Source of the DNA: a virus
Taxonomy: Duplodnaviria; Heunggongvirae; Uroviricota; Caudoviricetes
Direction: 5' to 3' (one strand)
DNA length: 24,212 nt
Virus record (IMG/VR): IMGVR_UViG_2529292882_000019
Part shown: piece after piece, positions 1,742 to 11,104 of the stretch
How the letters are laid out: each line of letters opens with the position of its first letter
Numbering within the stretch: the stretch's first letter is position 1
Position numbers and translations under genes: made by a program
Notes under the pieces: generated by a model
The model's database searches: none
What the model saw: only the letters and a program-made list of their open reading frames with translations
Told to the model about the DNA's origin: nothing

Positions 1742-1964
1742 GAACACCTCCATTATTATTTCCAGTGGTTCGTTTATTCCATCGTTCGAGTGCTTCTTTT
1801 TCACTTCCACCATAGCCGGTTCGGGATTCGCATCCGTTACACTTCGCGCGGTAATATCCTGAAATGGCTTTCACCGTTACTGATGGACAACCACAAAAAG
1901 GGCATGGTTTGACTTTTGTGTATCGCACTGGTTTTTCTCCTGTGAGCTTTGTGGCTGCGCTCAT
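1734..1964 (-). CDS. ralR: Lar/RalR-family restriction-alleviation protein (zinc-ribbon; RalR is also described as a type I toxin)
   Basis: Small protein with CPFCG...CNGC four-cysteine motif, as in Lar-family proteins. ATGA start/stop overlap with exo at 1961-1964. Located in the early operon next to the recombination genes. Confidence 0.6.
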
Positions 1965-2641
1965 TTCCATTGCTCCCCAAATACAAAACCAATTTCAGCC
2001 AGTGCCTCGTCCATTTTTTCGATGAATTCTGGCACCATCTCGTCAAAACTCGCCATGTACTTTTCATCCCGCTCAACCACGACATAATGCAGGCCTTCAC
2101 GCTTCATACGCGGGTCATAGTTGGCAAAGTACCAGGCATCTTTTTGCGTCACCCACATGCTGTACTGCACCTGGGCTATGTAAGCCGACTTTATGGCCCC
2201 GAAACCACCGAGCCGGAACTTCATGAAATCCCGGGAGGTAAACGGGCATTTCAGTTCAAGGCCGTTACCGTCGTTGCATAAGCCATCGGGAGAGCAGGCG
2301 GTGCGCATAGTCTCGTCACGATAGATGATCGGGGATTCAGTAACATTCACGCCGGAAATGAACTCAAACAGGGCTCTGGCGTCGTTCTCGTACTGTTTTC
2401 CCCAGGCCAGTGCTTTAGCGTTAACTTCTGGGGTCACTCCGGTGCAGACCTCAGCCAGCAGGGTGTGGAAGTAGGACATTTTCATGTCAGGCCATTTCTT
2501 TCCTGAGCGGGGTTTTGCTATCACGTTGTGAACTTCTGAAGCTGTGATGACGCCGAGCCGTAATTTGTGCCACGCATCATCCCCTTGTTTAACAGTTCTC
2601 ACGTCGATTCCTGTACGTTGCAGGATAATGTCAGGAGTCAT
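1961..2641 (-). CDS. exo: Lambda exonuclease (Red-alpha), 226 aa
   Basis: Protein [15 protein letters not shown]...GFVFGEQWK is near-identical by recall to phage lambda Exo and has the same length. ATGA coupling to bet. Confidence 0.95.
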
Positions 2642-7542: not shown

Positions 7543-8004
7543 CTACTGGTTACGTTTCTTTAGTGCCAGCATGTTCTCGAAGGCTTCCTCGTAGAGCTTG
7601 TTTAGTCCACGTAGCTGGTTAAGGAGTTTGGCTTTTTCTGACGCAGGTAGAATCTCGAAGAGGTTAAGCAACTCTGCCTGTTCTTCATTGACCAGCCTCC
7701 ATCCTTTGCCTGAAAAGCTATCATCATAAGTATCTGATGATCTTACATAATTCATTAAGTCTTTAAGGTCTTCTCGAATGTCCTCTGGTTTTACCTTTAA
7801 CAGAGCCGCAAATTTTAGCGCAGCGTCGGTATTTACCGGTATCTTGCCGTTCAGATACTGGCTAACGGTGCCTTGAGATTCGAATCCCAACAACTCAGCC
7901 GCCAGCTCTTGAGTCAGCTTCAGCTCTTTTTTTCTTGCATTCCATGCGGCTTTTAAATTCTTGCTCGCTTCTGGAGTTGCAATCACTTCGCGTGTTTTTT
8001 TCAT
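7543..8004 (-). CDS. racR: Prophage repressor (CI functional analogue, RacR-like), 153 aa
   Basis: N-terminal XRE-type HTH (LTQELAAELLGFESQGTVSQYLNGK). Divergent from a Cro-like gene across a 100-bp AT-rich intergenic region. No obvious SD, compatible with a leaderless maintenance transcript. Confidence 0.75.
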   Translation of the reverse strand: MKKTREVIATPEASKNLKAAWNARKKELKLTQELAAELLGFESQGTVSQYLNGKIPVNTDAALKFAALLKVKPEDIREDLKDLMNYVRSSDTYDDSFSGKGWRLVNEEQAELLNLFEILPASEKAKLLNQLRGLNKLYEEAFENMLALKKRNQ

Positions 8005-8105: not shown

Positions 8106-8387
8106 TTGGCTATGAACTTAAGAGACTATTTAAAAGAGAAACATATCACCCAGCTACAGTTTGGGAAGCTAACGGGTTTATCTCAGGTGCATGTAAGTCG
8201 AGTGCTGGGGGGCTATGAAAGATTCAGCCCTGAAAAAGCATTACGTGTTGCTGAAGTAACGAATTTCGAGGTTACACCTCATGAACTCCGGCCTGATATC
8301 TACCCGAATCCAACCGACGGTTTACCTGTTGGATGTAAGGCTAACACACAAAATACACAGGAGTTGATTCATGAAAATCAGGCATGA
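8106..8387 (+). CDS. ydaS: Cro-like HTH regulator (YdaS-like), 93 aa
   Basis: HTH motif ITQLQFGKLTGLSQVHVSRV. First gene of the rightward operon, divergent from the repressor. Confidence 0.7.
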   Translation: MAMNLRDYLKEKHITQLQFGKLTGLSQVHVSRVLGGYERFSPEKALRVAEVTNFEVTPHELRPDIYPNPTDGLPVGCKANTQNTQELIHENQA

Positions 8388-8793
8388 GCACATCGAATCA
8401 GTGCTGTTAGCCCTGGCAGCCGAAAAAGGGCAGGCGTGGGTCGCTAACGCAATTACTGAAGAATATCTGCGCCAGGGGGGAGGTGAATTGTCTCTGACAC
8501 CAGGCAAGGACTGGAACAATCAGCAGAACATCTATCGCCGTTGGTTAAAAGGTGAAACGGAAGCGCAAAGGGAAAAAATTCAGAAGCTGATCCCAGCAAT
8601 TCTGGCAATCCTTCCGCGGGAGCTGCGTCACCGACTCTGCATCTTCGATACCCTGGAACGCCGTGCATTACTGGCGGCGCAGGAAGCGTTGAGTACGGCA
8701 ATTGATGCGCATGATGACGCAGTCCAGGCCGTTTACCGTAAAGCGCATTTCGGCGGTGGTGGAGCGTCCGACGATTCTGTTGTAGTGCATTGA
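8371..8793 (+). CDS. ydaT: YdaT-like protein (CII-like functional analogue), 140 aa
   Basis: 140-aa ORF overlapping the ydaS-like stop, with GGAG RBS. Size and position match Rac YdaT. Confidence 0.65.
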   Translation: MKIRHEHIESVLLALAAEKGQAWVANAITEEYLRQGGGELSLTPGKDWNNQQNIYRRWLKGETEAQREKIQKLIPAILAILPRELRHRLCIFDTLERRALLAAQEALSTAIDAHDDAVQAVYRKAHFGGGGASDDSVVVH

Positions 8794-8812
8794 TTGAATA
8801 GGGTATCCAATA

Positions 8813-9226
8813 ATGAAAATCAAACCGTACATAAATGCCGGAAATCTTACTCCCGGCGAACTACGAGACTGGATCCTGAAACTTGCAAAAAATGCAGAAA
8901 TTGCGGGTTGGGGTACAGAAACTTCGGTTCGGAAGCTTCAGAGCGCAGAACTTAGCCTGCGCTCAGTTATGGACGATTTATCCCCAAGAATTAATTTTCT
9001 GGGGTCAGAGCAAATAATTCGTTCGGAAGATCACTCCAGCGAAGTTGCGGAAGTTCTGAATACTCTGAGGATAACTTTTGCTGCCGTTCGCGATATTCAA
9101 CGAACCATTCTCTCATTGATTTCTCAGCTTCAAGAAATTGATAGTCGCATTCCTGACGGGGGTCATAGAGAGCGTCTTCCAGAATGTGAAGAGCAAGGAC
9201 AGGGGAAACAGATAAGGGATCAGTAA
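8813..9226 (+). CDS. Hypothetical protein, 137 aa (conflicts with the minus-strand ORF 8991..9446)
   Basis: Co-directional with ydaS/ydaT but weak RBS. Overlaps the opposite-strand ORF by 236 nt; only one of the two is likely real. Confidence 0.35.
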   Translation: MKIKPYINAGNLTPGELRDWILKLAKNAEIAGWGTETSVRKLQSAELSLRSVMDDLSPRINFLGSEQIIRSEDHSSEVAEVLNTLRITFAAVRDIQRTILSLISQLQEIDSRIPDGGHRERLPECEEQGQGKQIRDQ

Positions 9227-9446
9227 TACGTTTTTCACTTGCCTGGTATAGCAATCTCGCCAGCGAATCATAGCTACTGGGGCTCAGGAGAGAATCCCGT
9301 GAGTGATTTGTAAGAATCAGGTGAAAGCGGGTGAGAACTATAGCCCTGCATGTTACCAGGTTAACCATGTCGTGGTCGTGCTGGTTAATTTTGTACACAG
9401 TGCGCATGTGATTTTTAATTTTTTGGCAAACAGCCATTAAAGACAT
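8991..9446 (-). CDS. Hypothetical protein, 151 aa (conflicts with the plus-strand ORF 8813..9226)
   Basis: Near-consensus RBS AAGGAGG 7 nt before the ATG at 9446. Divergent from the replication gene. Confidence 0.4.
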   Translation of the reverse strand: MSLMAVCQKIKNHMRTVYKINQHDHDMVNLVTCRAIVLTRFHLILTNHSRDSLLSPSSYDSLARLLYQASEKRITDPLSVSPVLALHILEDALYDPRQECDYQFLEAEKSMREWFVEYRERQQKLSSEYSELPQLRWSDLPNELFALTPEN

Positions 9447-9525
9447 GTCGAACCTCCTTTGGTTCTGTTGATTGGGGAATCACAGATTATATCCGGAGGA
9501 AGGTTCGACACCAGATGAGGCAATT

Positions 9526-10650
9526 ATGGTTAAGGCTAAAAACATGCCAAATCCCATGCCAAAAACTAAGGCAAACAATGAGCCTTATCGCAAGGTAAAA
9601 ATAACGATATGGGATGATCCCAAATTTAGGGCGTTATCTCCTCTGCCTCCAAGTGGACAGAGTTTGTTTATTTATCTGCTGACCAGTCCATTTACCGGGA
9701 TTATTCCTGGGTTGTTTAAAGCCGGGCGGGCAGCAATGGCTGAAGAGTTGGGGTGGGATATCGAAGCCTTTGACTTAGCCTTAGGCGAAGCCATGAATCT
9801 TGGCATGGTGAAAGCAGATATCAAAGCCAGAGTTTTTTGGCTCCCGAATGCTGCGAAACACAATCCGCCAAACTCGATAAATGTCATTAAATCCTGGGCA
9901 AAGGCATTCGCTTTAATTCCTGATTGCCCTCTCAAATGGGAGGCCAGGGAATCGCTGAGAGCCGCGTCCTACGGGGTTTCTGAGGCTTTGGGGATGGCAT
10001 TCGATAAGGCAATCCCTTTGCCTGAGGATAAGCCTAAGGATAAGGCTAACGCTTTGTCATGCGGTATCCAGATAACAGATAACAGATATATAAACCCCAC
10101 ACATAACGCGCGCGTGCGCGAGAGTGCTCCGACCAGTGAGGCAAATGGCGTGCCGTTGCAGACAGCGGAACCTGATTACCTGGAAGGCCTGAGCGAACCC
10201 ATCGGGAAATTTCCTATGACCGATGGCTGGCATCCGTCGCCGGATTTTCGACGACGGGCTGCGCTGTGGGGCGTGGCTCTTCCTGAGCCGGAATTTACAC
10301 CAACTGAACTTGCCGCCTTCCGGGACTACTGGGCAGCGGAGGGCAAAGTGTTCACGCAGGTTCAGTGGGAGCAGAAATTCGCCCGTCACGTAAATCACGT
10401 CAGGGCGCAGGTTAAACCAGTCAGCAAGGGGGTAAACCATGCAGCAACACCAGGTGGCACCGCATCACGGGCAGTTCAGGAAATTCGGGCAGCACGTGAG
10501 CAGTGGGAACGTGAAAACGGATTTATCAGCGACGGAAACGGCGTGGAAGCTGTGGGAACTCATGGGGGAGGTTTATTCGAACCGCTGGACCCAGAAGAAC
10601 GGGGCCGCACCTTCGAAGCTCTGGATTGCACAGATTGGCGCGATGACTGA
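9526..10650 (+). CDS. Replication initiator / replisome organiser (O-like, DnaT-like C-terminal region), about 374 aa from the RBS-supported ATG
   Basis: Large plus-strand ORF directly upstream of a lambda P-like gene. Internal iteron-like repeats at 10020-10110. GAGG lies 5 nt before the ATG at 9526; the track start at 9472 is TTG. Confidence 0.65.
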   Translation: MVKAKNMPNPMPKTKANNEPYRKVKITIWDDPKFRALSPLPPSGQSLFIYLLTSPFTGIIPGLFKAGRAAMAEELGWDIEAFDLALGEAMNLGMVKADIKARVFWLPNAAKHNPPNSINVIKSWAKAFALIPDCPLKWEARESLRAASYGVSEALGMAFDKAIPLPEDKPKDKANALSCGIQITDNRYINPTHNARVRESAPTSEANGVPLQTAEPDYLEGLSEPIGKFPMTDGWHPSPDFRRRAALWGVALPEPEFTPTELAAFRDYWAAEGKVFTQVQWEQKFARHVNHVRAQVKPVSKGVNHAATPGGTASRAVQEIRAAREQWERENGFISDGNGVEAVGTHGGGLFEPLDPEERGRTFEALDCTDWRDD

Positions 10651-11104
10651 GCAGCAAATCCGGCTGGTCTGCCGCCAGTGCATGGACCGCTGCCGGGCGG
10701 GTGAAACATGGCCTCCGGACCTGGCTGAGTTTGTGGCGCTGATTTCGGAGAGTGGGGCAAATCCATTTGGTCTGACGGTGGATGCTGTGATGGAGGAGTA
10801 CCGCCGCTGGCGCAATGAGTCCTGGCGATACGACGGAAGTGATAAGTACCCGTGGTCTCAGCCTGTGCTGTATCACATTTGCCTCGAGATGCGTTCAAAG
10901 GGGATTGAGCGCCAGATGACCGAAGGGGAATTAAAACGGCTTGCAGAACGGCAGCTGACGAAATGGGCAAAGCATGTTAGTAACGGCCTGGGCGTTCCGC
11001 CAGTCCGGCGACAACTGGCGGCACCCAAACGCCCGTCGGGGCCAACGCCAATTGAGTTACTGAAACAGGAATATGAACGCCGGAAAGCGGCTGGGTTTGT
11101 TTGA
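10439..11104 (+). CDS. Lambda P-like replicative helicase loader, 221 aa
   Basis: C-terminal half aligns by eye with lambda P (PPDLAEFVALI vs PSPGQFVAWC; YPWSQPVLYHIC vs YPWKSNAHYWLV; MTEGELKRLAERQL vs LTDAELRRKAADEL). GGGGG RBS before the ATG at 10439. Overlaps the initiator ORF out of frame. Confidence 0.7.
   Translation: MQQHQVAPHHGQFRKFGQHVSSGNVKTDLSATETAWKLWELMGEVYSNRWTQKNGAAPSKLWIAQIGAMTEQQIRLVCRQCMDRCRAGETWPPDLAEFVALISESGANPFGLTVDAVMEEYRRWRNESWRYDGSDKYPWSQPVLYHICLEMRSKGIERQMTEGELKRLAERQLTKWAKHVSNGLGVPPVRRQLAAPKRPSGPTPIELLKQEYERRKAAGFV

What the first reader, a model, noticed from the sequence alone, without database searches (positions are those of the whole stretch)
8813..9526. Two mutually exclusive long ORFs on opposite strands between the immunity genes and the replication initiator
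A 137-aa plus-strand ORF and a 151-aa minus-strand ORF overlap by 236 nt. The minus-strand one has a near-consensus AAGGAGG RBS and is divergent from the replication gene; the plus-strand one is co-directional with the operon but has a weak RBS. Which is real changes the transcriptional logic of the region.
Basis: seen in the sequence. Interest (0 to 1): 0.35.

Follow-up and report, generated by a model that had tools for sequence, protein, structure and literature searches.

The report
Two real genes overlapping on opposite strands
The two opposite-strand ORFs do not exclude each other: both look like real, conserved prophage genes, and their tail ends share about 150 bases that code for both proteins, which is rare and which standard annotation misses.

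Summary
ORF 8813-9226 (+, 137 aa, called P here) and ORF 8991-9446 (-, 151 aa, called M here) overlap by 236 nt. M has an AAGGAGG ribosome-binding site.

The "one or the other" interpretation is not supported. Both frames are conserved as proteins in prophages of E. coli, Salmonella, Serratia and Klebsiella, down to about 29-45% identity. The pair keeps the same convergent arrangement, with 158-239 nt of overlap.

- **Outside the overlap:** each gene shows ordinary purifying selection in its own frame only.
- **In the core overlap (8994-9146):** synonymous sites of both frames are constrained, and both frames stay open. Each protein is about twice as conserved as the other gene's constraint alone would predict (z = 18 and 28).
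- **P's last ~27 codons:** these are unconstrained read-on.

P lies in the early operon (cro, then cII/YdaT, then P, then replication genes). M is antisense to it, behind a conserved 68-nt promoter/leader. That leader also precedes at least ten unrelated small cargo genes and occurs in 582 of 5426 complete E. coli genomes.

RefSeq's PGAP annotation calls only P. No function could be assigned by any homology or fold search.

My preferred model is inference only: M is a lysogen-expressed accessory protein, P is its lytic-phase partner, and the two are coupled by convergent transcription.

The parts
8813..9226 (+). Gene P (137 aa). It is co-directional with cro, cII/YdaT and the replication genes. 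The predicted fold is a three-helix hairpin (helices 14-30, 35-64, 72-112) with a disordered tail.
   Evidence: ORF. It matches phrog_37051 at E = 1.5e-93 and is annotated by PGAP. Homologues of 110-139 aa sit at the same relative position in all divergent loci, and database homologues reach 36-49% identity. AF2 gives pLDDT 73 overall and 82-94 for residues 40-110.
8813..8990 (+). Region A: the part of P that lies outside M (P residues 1-59). It is coding in the P frame only.
   Evidence: pN/pS is 0.59 (bootstrap CI 0.51-0.68), with no stops in 7 lineages in the P frame. The other five frames carry 8-32 stops and have pN/pS of 0.71-1.25. The terminator-like hairpin at 8857-8837 is not conserved.
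8994..9146 (.). Region B1: the dual-coding core (M residues 101-151 and P residues 60-110). The frame relation puts position 1 opposite position 1, and position 2 opposite position 3.
   Evidence: Codon-position p-distances are flat and low: M 0.25/0.25/0.30 and P 0.22/0.29/0.25. pS is 0.43 for M and 0.31 for P, against 0.72-0.75 outside the overlap, and the confidence intervals do not overlap. Both frames have 0 stops in 7 lineages while the other frames have 9-33. Conservation exceeds what the other gene alone would impose: z = 18 for P and z = 28 for M.
9147..9226 (+). Region B2: P's C-terminal tail (residues ~111-137), which reads on over M coding sequence. It is selected only in the M frame.
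   Evidence: In the M frame pN/pS is 0.35. In the P frame it is ~1-1.4, and P position 2 is the most variable site (0.62). The P stop position varies, giving proteins of 110-139 aa. AF2 pLDDT is below 50 for residues 118-137. The conservation test is near null here: 0.27 observed against 0.22 expected.
8991..9446 (-). Gene M (151 aa), antisense to the early operon. It is predicted to be all-helical and carries the universal C-terminal motif L-P-E-L-x-W-x-D-L-P-x-E-L-F.
   Evidence: ORF. Full-length homologues of 148-162 aa reach about 29% identity. pN/pS is 0.44 in region C and 0.35 in region B2, with no stops. It is not annotated by PGAP but is annotated as gp13 in PP818812.1.
9453..9459 (-). 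Shine-Dalgarno sequence AAGGAGG of M, 6 nt before the ATG.
   Evidence: Read from the sequence. It is invariant or nearly so in 30 leaders.
9447..9514 (-). Conserved 68-nt promoter/leader of M: a -35-like CTGGTG (9514-9509), a 17-nt spacer, a -10 TATAAT (9491-9486), an inner stem-loop, and the Shine-Dalgarno sequence. Inverted-repeat arms lie at 9495-9509 and 9447-9457.
   Evidence: It is more conserved than the coding sequence across loci, and conservation stops about 72 nt upstream of the ATG. The invariant columns form a TAnnnT pattern, as expected of a -10 element. The hairpin folds at dG -27.8 (z -3.8) on the minus strand and -34.5 (z -4.3) on the plus strand. The inner helices covary. 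Rfam has no match.
9523..9550 (-). A second promoter-like site, specific to this context: TTGGCA-16-CATAAT, upstream of the leader and inside the start of the replication gene.
   Evidence: Consensus scan, 10 of 12 matches. It is absent from loci with other flanking sequence, such as L036, so it is not part of the mobile unit.
8371..8793 (+). Upstream neighbour: the CII-like activator of the YdaT family. It places P in the early rightward operon.
   Evidence: phrog_163 at E = 2.6e-36 and PF06254.
9527..10650 (+). Downstream neighbour: the replication initiator with a DnaT domain. The start at 9527 is likely; the ORF is open from 9472.
   Evidence: phrog_1408, phrog_15931 and PF17948. In the closest phage record the gene is annotated from the position equivalent to 9527.

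Best explanation
Both ORFs are genuine protein-coding genes. They form a conserved, mobile, convergent two-gene module inserted between cII/YdaT and the replication genes of a Rac/lambdoid prophage.

**Shown here**
- P (8813-9226) is read in the early rightward operon. M (8991-9446) is read from the opposite strand, behind its own conserved promoter/leader and a consensus ribosome-binding site.
- Their 3' ends overlap.
- About 51 codons (8994-9146) encode conserved parts of both proteins at once. These are M's C-terminal LPELxWxDLPxELF tail region and P's helix 2 - turn - helix 3.
- P then runs on for about 27 unconstrained codons until a stop happens to occur.

**Inferred, not shown**
- In the lysogen the early promoter is repressed, so only M is made, from the leader's sigma-70 promoter, as a prophage accessory ("moron") protein.
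- On induction or infection, early-operon transcription runs head-on through M.
- That transcription interferes with M expression, forms more than 450 nt of double-stranded RNA with M mRNA, and produces P.
- P may act with or against M.
- The long inverted repeat in the leader pairs best in the plus-strand RNA. It may be the contact or processing site for this switch.
For: **Both frames are conserved as proteins**
- M has full-length 151-aa homologues at 49-58% identity, and more distant ones at about 29%.
- P homologues of 110-139 aa occur at the same relative position in every divergent locus. They are also in the protein database at 36-49% identity.

**Selection outside the overlap**
- Region A has pN/pS 0.59 (CI 0.51-0.68) in the P frame only.
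- Region C has pN/pS 0.44 (CI 0.37-0.52) in the M frame only.
- The coding frames have no stops, against 8-48 in the other frames.

**Dual constraint in the core overlap**
- pS falls to 0.43 (M) and 0.31 (P), from 0.72-0.75 outside.
- With M's protein kept and its codons randomised, P identity would be 0.27. It is 0.55 (z = 18).
- The reverse test gives 0.63 against 0.225 (z = 28).
- The control region B2 gives 0.27 against 0.22.
- Stop-free probabilities are 1e-5 and smaller.

**P exists on its own:** stand-alone P paralogues occur without M (L048 copy 1, and L049) and keep the RIxFLxSxQIIRS motif.

**Structure prediction:** AF2 places a confident helix (residues 35-64) across the boundary between regions A and B1.

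**The linkage is specific:** P-family hits occur only opposite M-family cargo, including the most distant M (215-nt overlap).

**Orientation is constant:** P always runs with cro/cII and the replication genes, and M always runs against them.

**Leader:** invariant TAnnnT and TTG-like elements plus the Shine-Dalgarno sequence.

**Indirect expression evidence:** a sister cargo behind the same leader (ECs1072) was detected in uninduced O157 Sakai cultures by microarray (PMC2241611).

**Independent annotation:** one phage record annotates both ORFs.
Against: - No expression data exist for either gene. Transcription, translation, the start site of M's transcript and the interaction between M and P are all untested.
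- P's ribosome-binding site in this window is weak.
- No conserved terminator was found for M.
- The leader hairpin includes the -10 element, so part of it may lie upstream of M's transcription start. Its role is ambiguous.
- The 7 lineages are treated as independent. Synonymous saturation outside the overlap and the B2 control support this, but recombination within B1 cannot be strictly excluded.
- The AF2 model of M is poor (pLDDT 57).
- No homology or fold match gives any function.
Confidence: 0.75

Rival explanations
1. Only the minus-strand gene M is real. The plus ORF is a shadow ORF, kept open and apparently conserved only because M constrains the DNA.
For: M has the consensus ribosome-binding site, while the plus ORF's is weak in this window. 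The plus ORF's last ~27 codons show no selection in their own frame. The first single-sequence search found plus-ORF homologues only at 87% identity or more.
Against: The first 59 codons of P lie outside M. They still show frame-specific purifying selection, no stops in 7 lineages, a conserved start position and strong ribosome-binding sites in other lineages. In the core overlap P is twice as conserved as M's constraint predicts (z = 18). P paralogues exist without M. A profile search finds divergent P homologues. AF2 gives a confident fold.
Confidence: 0.05
2. Only the plus-strand gene P is real, as in the RefSeq PGAP annotation and PHROG 37051. The minus ORF is a chance antisense ORF.
For: PGAP annotates only the plus ORF in E. 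coli genomes. A PHROG family exists for P and none for M.
Against: M's non-overlapping 73 codons, and the 26 codons opposite P's tail, show the clearest coding signature in the locus (pN/pS 0.44 and 0.35, no stops against 25-48 in other frames). M has 151-aa homologues down to about 29% identity with a universal C-terminal motif. Its ribosome-binding site and leader are conserved. With P's protein fixed, the M frame would be stop-free in only 0.1-2.5% of codon randomisations per lineage.
Confidence: 0.03
3. Both genes are real, but the overlap has no regulatory meaning. It is a by-product of genome compaction or of a cassette inserting into the 3' end of P. M and P are functionally unrelated, and their expression is not coupled.
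For: P's tail is unconstrained read-on. P occurs alone in some phages. In one sister cargo class the convergent partners merely abut, with 0 to -3 nt of overlap.
Against: In the loci examined, M-family genes occur with an overlapping P-family gene. The one exception is L006, where P's N-terminal part is replaced. The overlap persists (158-239 nt) from 100% down to about 29% M identity. P-family hits are absent opposite other cargo types. The most conserved motif of M and the central turn of P share the same DNA.
Confidence: 0.3
4. The low, flat divergence in 8994-9146 reflects a nucleic-acid element or recent recombination between modules, not selection on two proteins.
For: Divergence is reduced at all three codon positions in B1, which homogenisation or an RNA/DNA element could also produce. 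The locus is mosaic and mobile.
Against: M's amino-acid divergence in B1 (pN 0.22) is similar to the neighbouring B2 (0.25), while pS is much lower (0.43 against 0.72). That does not fit a simply younger segment. Both frames, and only those two, are stop-free. P copies without M keep the same residues. Rfam has no match.
Confidence: 0.07

Closest known systems
Antiparallel overlapping protein-coding genes reported in E. coli O157:H7 and Pseudomonas (e.g. ano/ECs2385, PMC5960689; three EDL933 pairs, PMC9927249; P. aeruginosa pairs, PMC8850804)
   Same: Two proteins are encoded on opposite strands of the same DNA. Standard annotation keeps only one of them.
   Different: Those cases are mostly ORFs embedded inside a long annotated gene, supported mainly by RNA-seq and ribosome profiling. 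Here two genes of similar size overlap tail to tail. The evidence is evolutionary: both frames are conserved down to about 30-45% identity, with constrained synonymous sites. There are no expression data. No sequence relationship was tested or is expected.
Pseudomonas phage Fc02 olg1 / gene 10 (PMC9936078)
   Same: According to that paper's abstract, a gene transcribed in the lysogen overlaps, on the opposite strand, a gene of the early lytic operon in the lysis-lysogeny region of a temperate phage. Both gave superinfection exclusion. This is the closest match in architecture and in the proposed logic.
   Different: The phage type (Mu-like) and host differ. Homology was not tested. The function there was shown by experiment, whereas here it is unknown.
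Phage lambda oop antisense RNA downstream of cII (as summarised in PMC7067206)
   Same: A transcript starts just upstream of the replication gene and runs antisense towards cII.
   Different: oop is a short non-coding RNA that overlaps the 3' end of cII. M's transcript carries a conserved 151-aa ORF and overlaps P. Overlap with cII is not shown, and no conserved terminator was found. There is no sequence similarity by eye and no Rfam match.
Prophage accessory loci (morons), hotspots and defence genes with cognate self-immunity (BstA/aba, PMC8585504; P2/P4 hotspots, PMC9122126)
   Same: There is variable cargo at a fixed position of a temperate phage, flanked by conserved sequence and oriented against the lytic operon. 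There is the idea that the phage must neutralise its own accessory gene when it goes lytic.
   Different: No PADLOC model matches either protein and no defence phenotype is known. The conserved flank here is a 68-nt promoter/leader fused directly to the cargo start codon. The cargo usually comes with a convergent partner gene.
ECs1072 family phage-associated protein (NCBIfam name; E. coli O157:H7 prophages)
   Same: It occupies the same position (after YdaT, before the replication genes), has the same orientation and size (151 aa), and has the same leader. It is also overlapped, by 317 nt, by an unannotated ORF with a P-like N-terminus.
   Different: M does not match that NCBIfam model. A profile-profile comparison of M with this cargo class is not significant (probability 5%).

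Membership tests
Antiparallel overlapping protein-coding gene pair | Two ORFs on opposite strands share a substantial stretch of DNA. | tested here: met
   The overlap is 236 nt, 8991-9226. It is 158-239 nt in all related loci.
Antiparallel overlapping protein-coding gene pair | Each ORF is under purifying selection as a protein, beyond what the other gene imposes. | tested here: met
   There are frame-specific pN/pS signals outside the overlap. Synonymous constraint and excess conservation hold in both frames inside it.
Antiparallel overlapping protein-coding gene pair | Both ORFs are transcribed and translated. | not testable with these tools
   No RNA-seq, ribosome profiling or proteomics was available. 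The only indirect evidence is a microarray signal for a sister cargo, ECs1072.
Shadow ORF (annotation artefact) | The openness and conservation of the second frame are explained by the codon usage and constraint of the real gene. | tested here: not met
   Codon randomisation gives P(stop-free) products of 1e-5 and smaller. Conservation z-scores are 18 and 28, against 2.6 in the control.
Prophage moron / accessory cassette | Own promoter, independent of the phage operons. | tested here: inconclusive
   The conserved leader has an invariant TAnnnT -10 and a TTG-type -35 at a suitable spacing. The transcription start site is not known.
Prophage moron / accessory cassette | Own terminator. | tested here: not met
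   The only candidate hairpin (8857-8837) is not conserved in other lineages.
Prophage moron / accessory cassette | Present or absent, and exchangeable, among otherwise related phages. | tested here: met
   The module is in 24 of 5426 complete E. coli genomes, while the leader is in 582. It occurs in lambdoid prophages of different immunity types and in a P2-like prophage. At least ten alternative cargo types follow the same leader.
Toxin-antitoxin system (type I or II) | A recognisable toxin or antitoxin family; either a co-directional bicistron (type II) or a small hydrophobic toxin with an antisense RNA (type I). | tested here: not met
   There are no Pfam, NCBIfam or PADLOC matches. The genes are convergent, and both products are soluble helical proteins of 137-151 aa.
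Lambda oop-type antisense RNA | A short non-coding RNA with its own terminator, overlapping the 3' end of cII. | tested here: not met
   The transcript carries a conserved 151-aa ORF. There is no conserved terminator and no Rfam match.
PHROG 37051 (unknown function) | Significant match to the family profile over its full length. | tested here: met
   P matches at E = 1.5e-93 over positions 1-137 of 137. The family carries no functional information.
ECs1072 family / phrog_5286 cargo | Significant sequence or profile match. | tested here: inconclusive
   M has no NCBIfam or PHROG hit. hhalign of M against this class gives probability 5% and E = 0.0076 over residues 31-96. The position, size, leader and P-like partner are shared.

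The most novel reading that the evidence does not exclude
The 68-nt leader may mark a previously unrecognised cassette system at the cro/cII-replication junction of enterobacterial temperate phages. Each cassette would be a convergent gene pair: a lysogen-expressed antisense gene (M, the ECs1072 type, the 97-aa type and others) and an early-operon partner whose 3' end it overlaps. Head-on transcription, and pairing with the plus-strand leader hairpin, would make the two expression states mutually exclusive. Under this reading M/P would be a defence or host-modifying protein with a built-in lytic-phase antidote. Its 51-codon dual-coding core would be among the best evolutionary cases of antisense dual coding in bacteria.
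Probability: 0.3. Interest if true: 0.8.

Novelty: new variant of a known kind. Interest (0 to 1): 0.6.

Why it matters
Long antisense overlaps between bacterial or phage protein-coding genes are rare and disputed. Annotation pipelines remove one partner by rule, and here RefSeq's PGAP drops M, which has the clearer coding signal of the two.

This pair offers a clean test case:
- Each gene has a non-overlapping part that proves it is coding.
- A control segment shows selection in one frame only.
- A ~150-nt core shows constraint in both frames across deep divergence.

The work also exposes a common prophage locus, present in about one in ten complete E. coli genomes including O157:H7. At this locus a shared promoter/leader drives varied small genes of unknown function against the early lytic operon. 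If these are lysogen-expressed accessory or defence genes with lytic-phase partners, the locus would be a new place to look for phage-host and phage-phage interaction genes. It would also be a natural example of gene regulation by convergent transcription.

Tried and rejected
**Function by homology: nothing useful.**
- Pfam, NCBIfam and PADLOC gave no significant hit for either protein. The only matches were noise: JetD at E = 0.025 and PqqD at E = 0.047.
- PHROGs names P only as a family of unknown function.
- PDB profile searches found nothing.
- Foldseek of both models against PDB and BFVD found nothing at E <= 0.001, only generic coiled coils. The M model is too poor to trust (pLDDT 57).

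**RNA family:** Rfam has no match in 8600-9700.

**Terminator for M:** the hairpin at 8857-8837 is not conserved, so it was rejected both as a terminator and as an explanation for the conserved NAGNL motif in region A.

**M related to ECs1072/phrog_5286 cargo:** hhalign was not significant, so this is left open.

**Leader hairpin as a ribosome-binding-site trap in M's mRNA:** this is plausible from the fold. It is weakened by two results. The -10 element lies inside the hairpin, and wobble pairs favour the opposite strand. RNAalifold did not recover the long stem by itself.

**Searches that returned nothing:**
- An over-specified pattern scan of the viral contigs.
- A window scan in which I used the wrong spacing.
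- Literature searches for the protein accessions, for the overlap and for a lambdoid hotspot at this position.

**A second fully overlapping pair (97/99-aa cargo):** the stop-free probability is only about 5e-4 over 4 lineages, in the frame known to be poor in stops. This is not conclusive.
Full report
**1. The observation**

The window holds ORF 8813-9226 (+, ATG, 137 aa) and ORF 8991-9446 (-, ATG, 151 aa). They share 236 nt. I call the plus ORF P and the minus ORF M.

M is preceded by AAGGAGG at 9459-9453, 6 nt before its ATG. P has only a weak TAGGG upstream.

The surroundings form a Rac/lambdoid immunity and replication region:
- HTH repressor, 7543-8004 (-)
- cro/YdaS, 8106-8387 (+)
- CII-like YdaT-family gene, 8371-8793 (+)
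- DnaT-domain replication initiator from 9472/9527 (+)
- P-like gene, 10439-11104 (+)

**2. How annotation treats the locus**

RefSeq (PGAP) annotates only P, as a hypothetical protein. It leaves about 300-500 nt unannotated where M lies. PHROGs has a family for P (phrog_37051) and none for M. One GenBank phage record, PP818812.1, is 99.3% identical here and annotates both ORFs as gp12 and gp13.

**3. Both frames are conserved in distant relatives**

- M has full-length 151-aa homologues at 49-58% identity in Salmonella, Serratia and metagenomes.
- A single-sequence search with P found only relatives at 87% identity or more. That result alone would have favoured M.
- I then fetched the DNA of the divergent M loci. 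In nearly all of them the opposite strand carries an ORF of 110-139 aa in the same relative frame. It starts about 178 nt beyond M's stop, and its N-terminus (KPxINAGxLxPxELxxW) is conserved.
- A profile built from these translations finds P homologues in the protein database down to 36-49% identity, from Klebsiella, Salmonella and E. coli.
- An HMMER profile search of 1.84 billion representative proteins found only 23 M-family representatives, of 148-162 aa. All carry the C-terminal motif LPELxWxDLPxELF.
- The most distant one examined (P0057, locus L145) still has the same leader and a 139-aa P homologue overlapping it by 215 nt.

**4. Selection analysis**

I used seven lineages whose synonymous sites are saturated against each other outside the overlap. 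The locus splits into four parts.

| Region | Window coordinates | M frame | P frame |
|---|---|---|---|
| A (P only) | 8813-8990 | not M coding | pN/pS 0.59 (CI 0.51-0.68), no stops |
| B1 (core overlap) | 8994-9146 | pS 0.43, no stops | pS 0.31, no stops |
| B2 (P's last ~27 codons) | 9147-9226 | pN/pS 0.35 | pN/pS ~1-1.4 |
| C (M only) | 9227-9446 | pN/pS 0.44 (CI 0.37-0.52), no stops | not P coding |

- Region A: the other five frames carry 8-32 stops.
- Region C: the other frames carry 25-48 stops.
- Region B2: P's second codon position is the most variable site, and P's stop codon moves between lineages. This tail is unconstrained read-on.
- Region B1: codon-position divergences are flat and low in both frames. 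pS outside the overlap is 0.72-0.75, and the bootstrap intervals do not overlap those in B1. The two frames in question have no stops, while the remaining frames have 9-33.

Two simulations address the shadow-ORF objection directly.
- **Stop-free test.** With M's protein fixed and its synonymous codons randomised, P's frame would be stop-free in 10-32% of trials per lineage. The product over seven lineages is 1e-5. With P's protein fixed, M's frame would be stop-free in 0.1-2.5% of trials per lineage.
- **Conservation test.** With M's protein fixed, P's amino-acid identity in B1 would be 0.27, and it is 0.55 (z = 18). The reverse test gives 0.63 against 0.225 (z = 28). In control region B2 the same test gives 0.27 against 0.22.

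**5. Independent support**

- P-family genes exist without M. In L048 a 120-aa P paralogue sits directly upstream of a second P copy. That second copy overlaps a distant M by 194 nt. In L049 a P homologue stands alone. Both keep the RIxFLxSxQIIRS motif that is shared with M's tail in the window.
- AF2 models P as a three-helix hairpin, with pLDDT 82-94 over residues 40-110. One helix crosses the A/B1 boundary, and the tail from residue 113 is disordered. This matches the selection map.
- M is predicted to be all-helical, but the model is weak (pLDDT 57).
- The candidate terminator hairpin inside region A is not conserved. The conservation there is therefore at the protein level.

**6. Transcriptional logic**

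In every locus examined, P runs in the same direction as cro/cII and the replication genes, and M runs against them.

The 68 nt upstream of M's ATG (9447-9514) are more conserved than the coding sequence, and conservation ends there. The invariant columns spell a -10 of the form TAnnnT (TATAAT in the window, 9491-9486). A TTG/CTG-GTG element lies about 17 nt upstream of it, and the Shine-Dalgarno sequence follows. I read this as a portable sigma-70 promoter plus leader.

The element is also a long inverted repeat.
- It folds at -27.8 kcal/mol on the M strand, where it would hide the ribosome-binding site.
- It folds at -34.5 kcal/mol on the plus strand.
- The inner helices covary.
- Wobble pairs favour the plus strand. 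Across 30 leaders, 84 cells are C·A on the M strand, which is G·U on the plus strand. Only 21 cells show the reverse. That gives 608 of 671 cells paired on the plus strand against 545 of 671 on the M strand.

The hairpin may therefore act in the early-operon RNA. I could not resolve this. A second promoter-like site (9550-9523) is specific to this context.

**7. A wider pattern (outside the finding)**

The leader occurs 94 times in IMG/VR contigs, in front of at least ten unrelated small cargo ORFs. It is present in 582 of 5426 complete E. coli genomes, whereas the M/P module is in 24.

In O157:H7 the leader precedes the "ECs1072 family phage-associated protein". That gene is overlapped by 317 nt by an unannotated plus-strand ORF with a P-like N-terminus.

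Other cargo classes also have convergent partners, overlapping them by 140-323 nt or abutting them. I did not test selection on these, apart from one weak stop-free test. P-family profile hits are found only opposite M-family cargo.

**8. Function**

No homology or fold search gave a function.

My preferred mechanism is inference:
- M is expressed from the leader in the lysogen, as an accessory protein.
- On induction, transcription from the early promoter runs head-on through M and forms a long RNA duplex with M's mRNA.
- That transcription also yields P, which may partner or antagonise M.

The closest experimental analogue I found is the olg1/gene 10 antisense pair of Pseudomonas phage Fc02, where both genes gave superinfection exclusion (PMC9936078). 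The concept of a prophage defence gene with cognate self-immunity comes from BstA (PMC8585504). ECs1072 gave a growth-phase-dependent microarray signal in uninduced O157 Sakai (PMC2241611). That is weak, indirect support for expression of leader-driven cargo in lysogens.

**9. Verdict**

The answer to "which ORF is real" is both. They share a dual-coding core of about 150 nt that is conserved across the whole detectable family.

I put about 0.85 on both genes being protein-coding and about 0.35 on the proposed switch. The best-explanation confidence of 0.75 blends these, weighted towards the coding claim.

Novelty: a new variant of a known kind (antiparallel overlapping genes; prophage accessory cassettes). 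Interest: 0.6.

Noticed in passing
window 9447-9514 (- strand); L050-L143: The 68-nt sequence upstream of M is a portable promoter/leader. It occurs 94 times in IMG/VR contigs, in front of at least ten unrelated small ORFs. These include a BssS-like protein (PF13991), phrog_4753 and phrog_5286 families, and several orphans. It is present in 582 of 5426 complete E. coli genomes.
   Followed up: partly
window 9447-9457 with 9495-9509, and the inner stem 9466-9485: The leader is a long inverted repeat with covarying inner helices. Wobble pairs (84 cells against 21) indicate it pairs better in the plus-strand (early-operon) RNA than in M's own mRNA. The -10 element lies inside it. Its role is unknown.
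   Followed up: partly
L147 1560-2069 (+) against 1753-2208 (-) (E. coli O157, NZ_CP022050.2): At the same prophage position in O157:H7, the annotated "ECs1072 family phage-associated protein" is overlapped by 317 nt by an unannotated ORF on the opposite strand. That ORF has a P-like N-terminus (SPHIWRGGLSDVELAEWL).
   Followed up: partly
L125, L055, L070, L076 (97/99/92-aa cargo): A second cargo class is almost entirely overlapped (207-273 nt or more) by a convergent ORF that looks conserved in four lineages (KIxIxYxGxxIxIxPIT...). The stop-free probability is only about 5e-4, in a frame that is naturally poor in stops, so this is not conclusive.
   Followed up: partly
L048 4001-4363 and 4368-4748; L049 4001-4357: The P-family gene is duplicated in tandem in one prophage. 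The first copy has no M partner, but the opposite strand still shows a decayed remnant of M's C-terminus. In L049 the leader abuts the 3' end of a lone P homologue.
   Followed up: partly
L006 (Trabulsiella guamensis) 1505-1954: An M homologue is present, but the N-terminal part of P is replaced by unrelated sequence. The opposite-strand frame remains open as a 254-aa ORF. The leader arms carry compensating changes (CTGA...TCAG instead of CGAA...TTCG).
   Followed up: no
PP818812.1 (L144): A record named "Actinobacillus phage vB_Apl-pPE4" is 99.3% identical to this E. coli prophage region. It carries Rac-type genes (Kil, DicA-like, YdaT). The stated host may be wrong.
   Followed up: no
L001 3930-4627 (E. 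coli HNSQ2209); window equivalent ~9629: In a 99.8% identical prophage, an IS1 element is inserted just inside the replication initiator gene, next to the M leader. PGAP's start for the replication gene also differs between genomes.
   Followed up: no
L030 704-1132: In one viral contig M is frameshifted to 26 aa while the overlapping P ORF stays intact.
   Followed up: no
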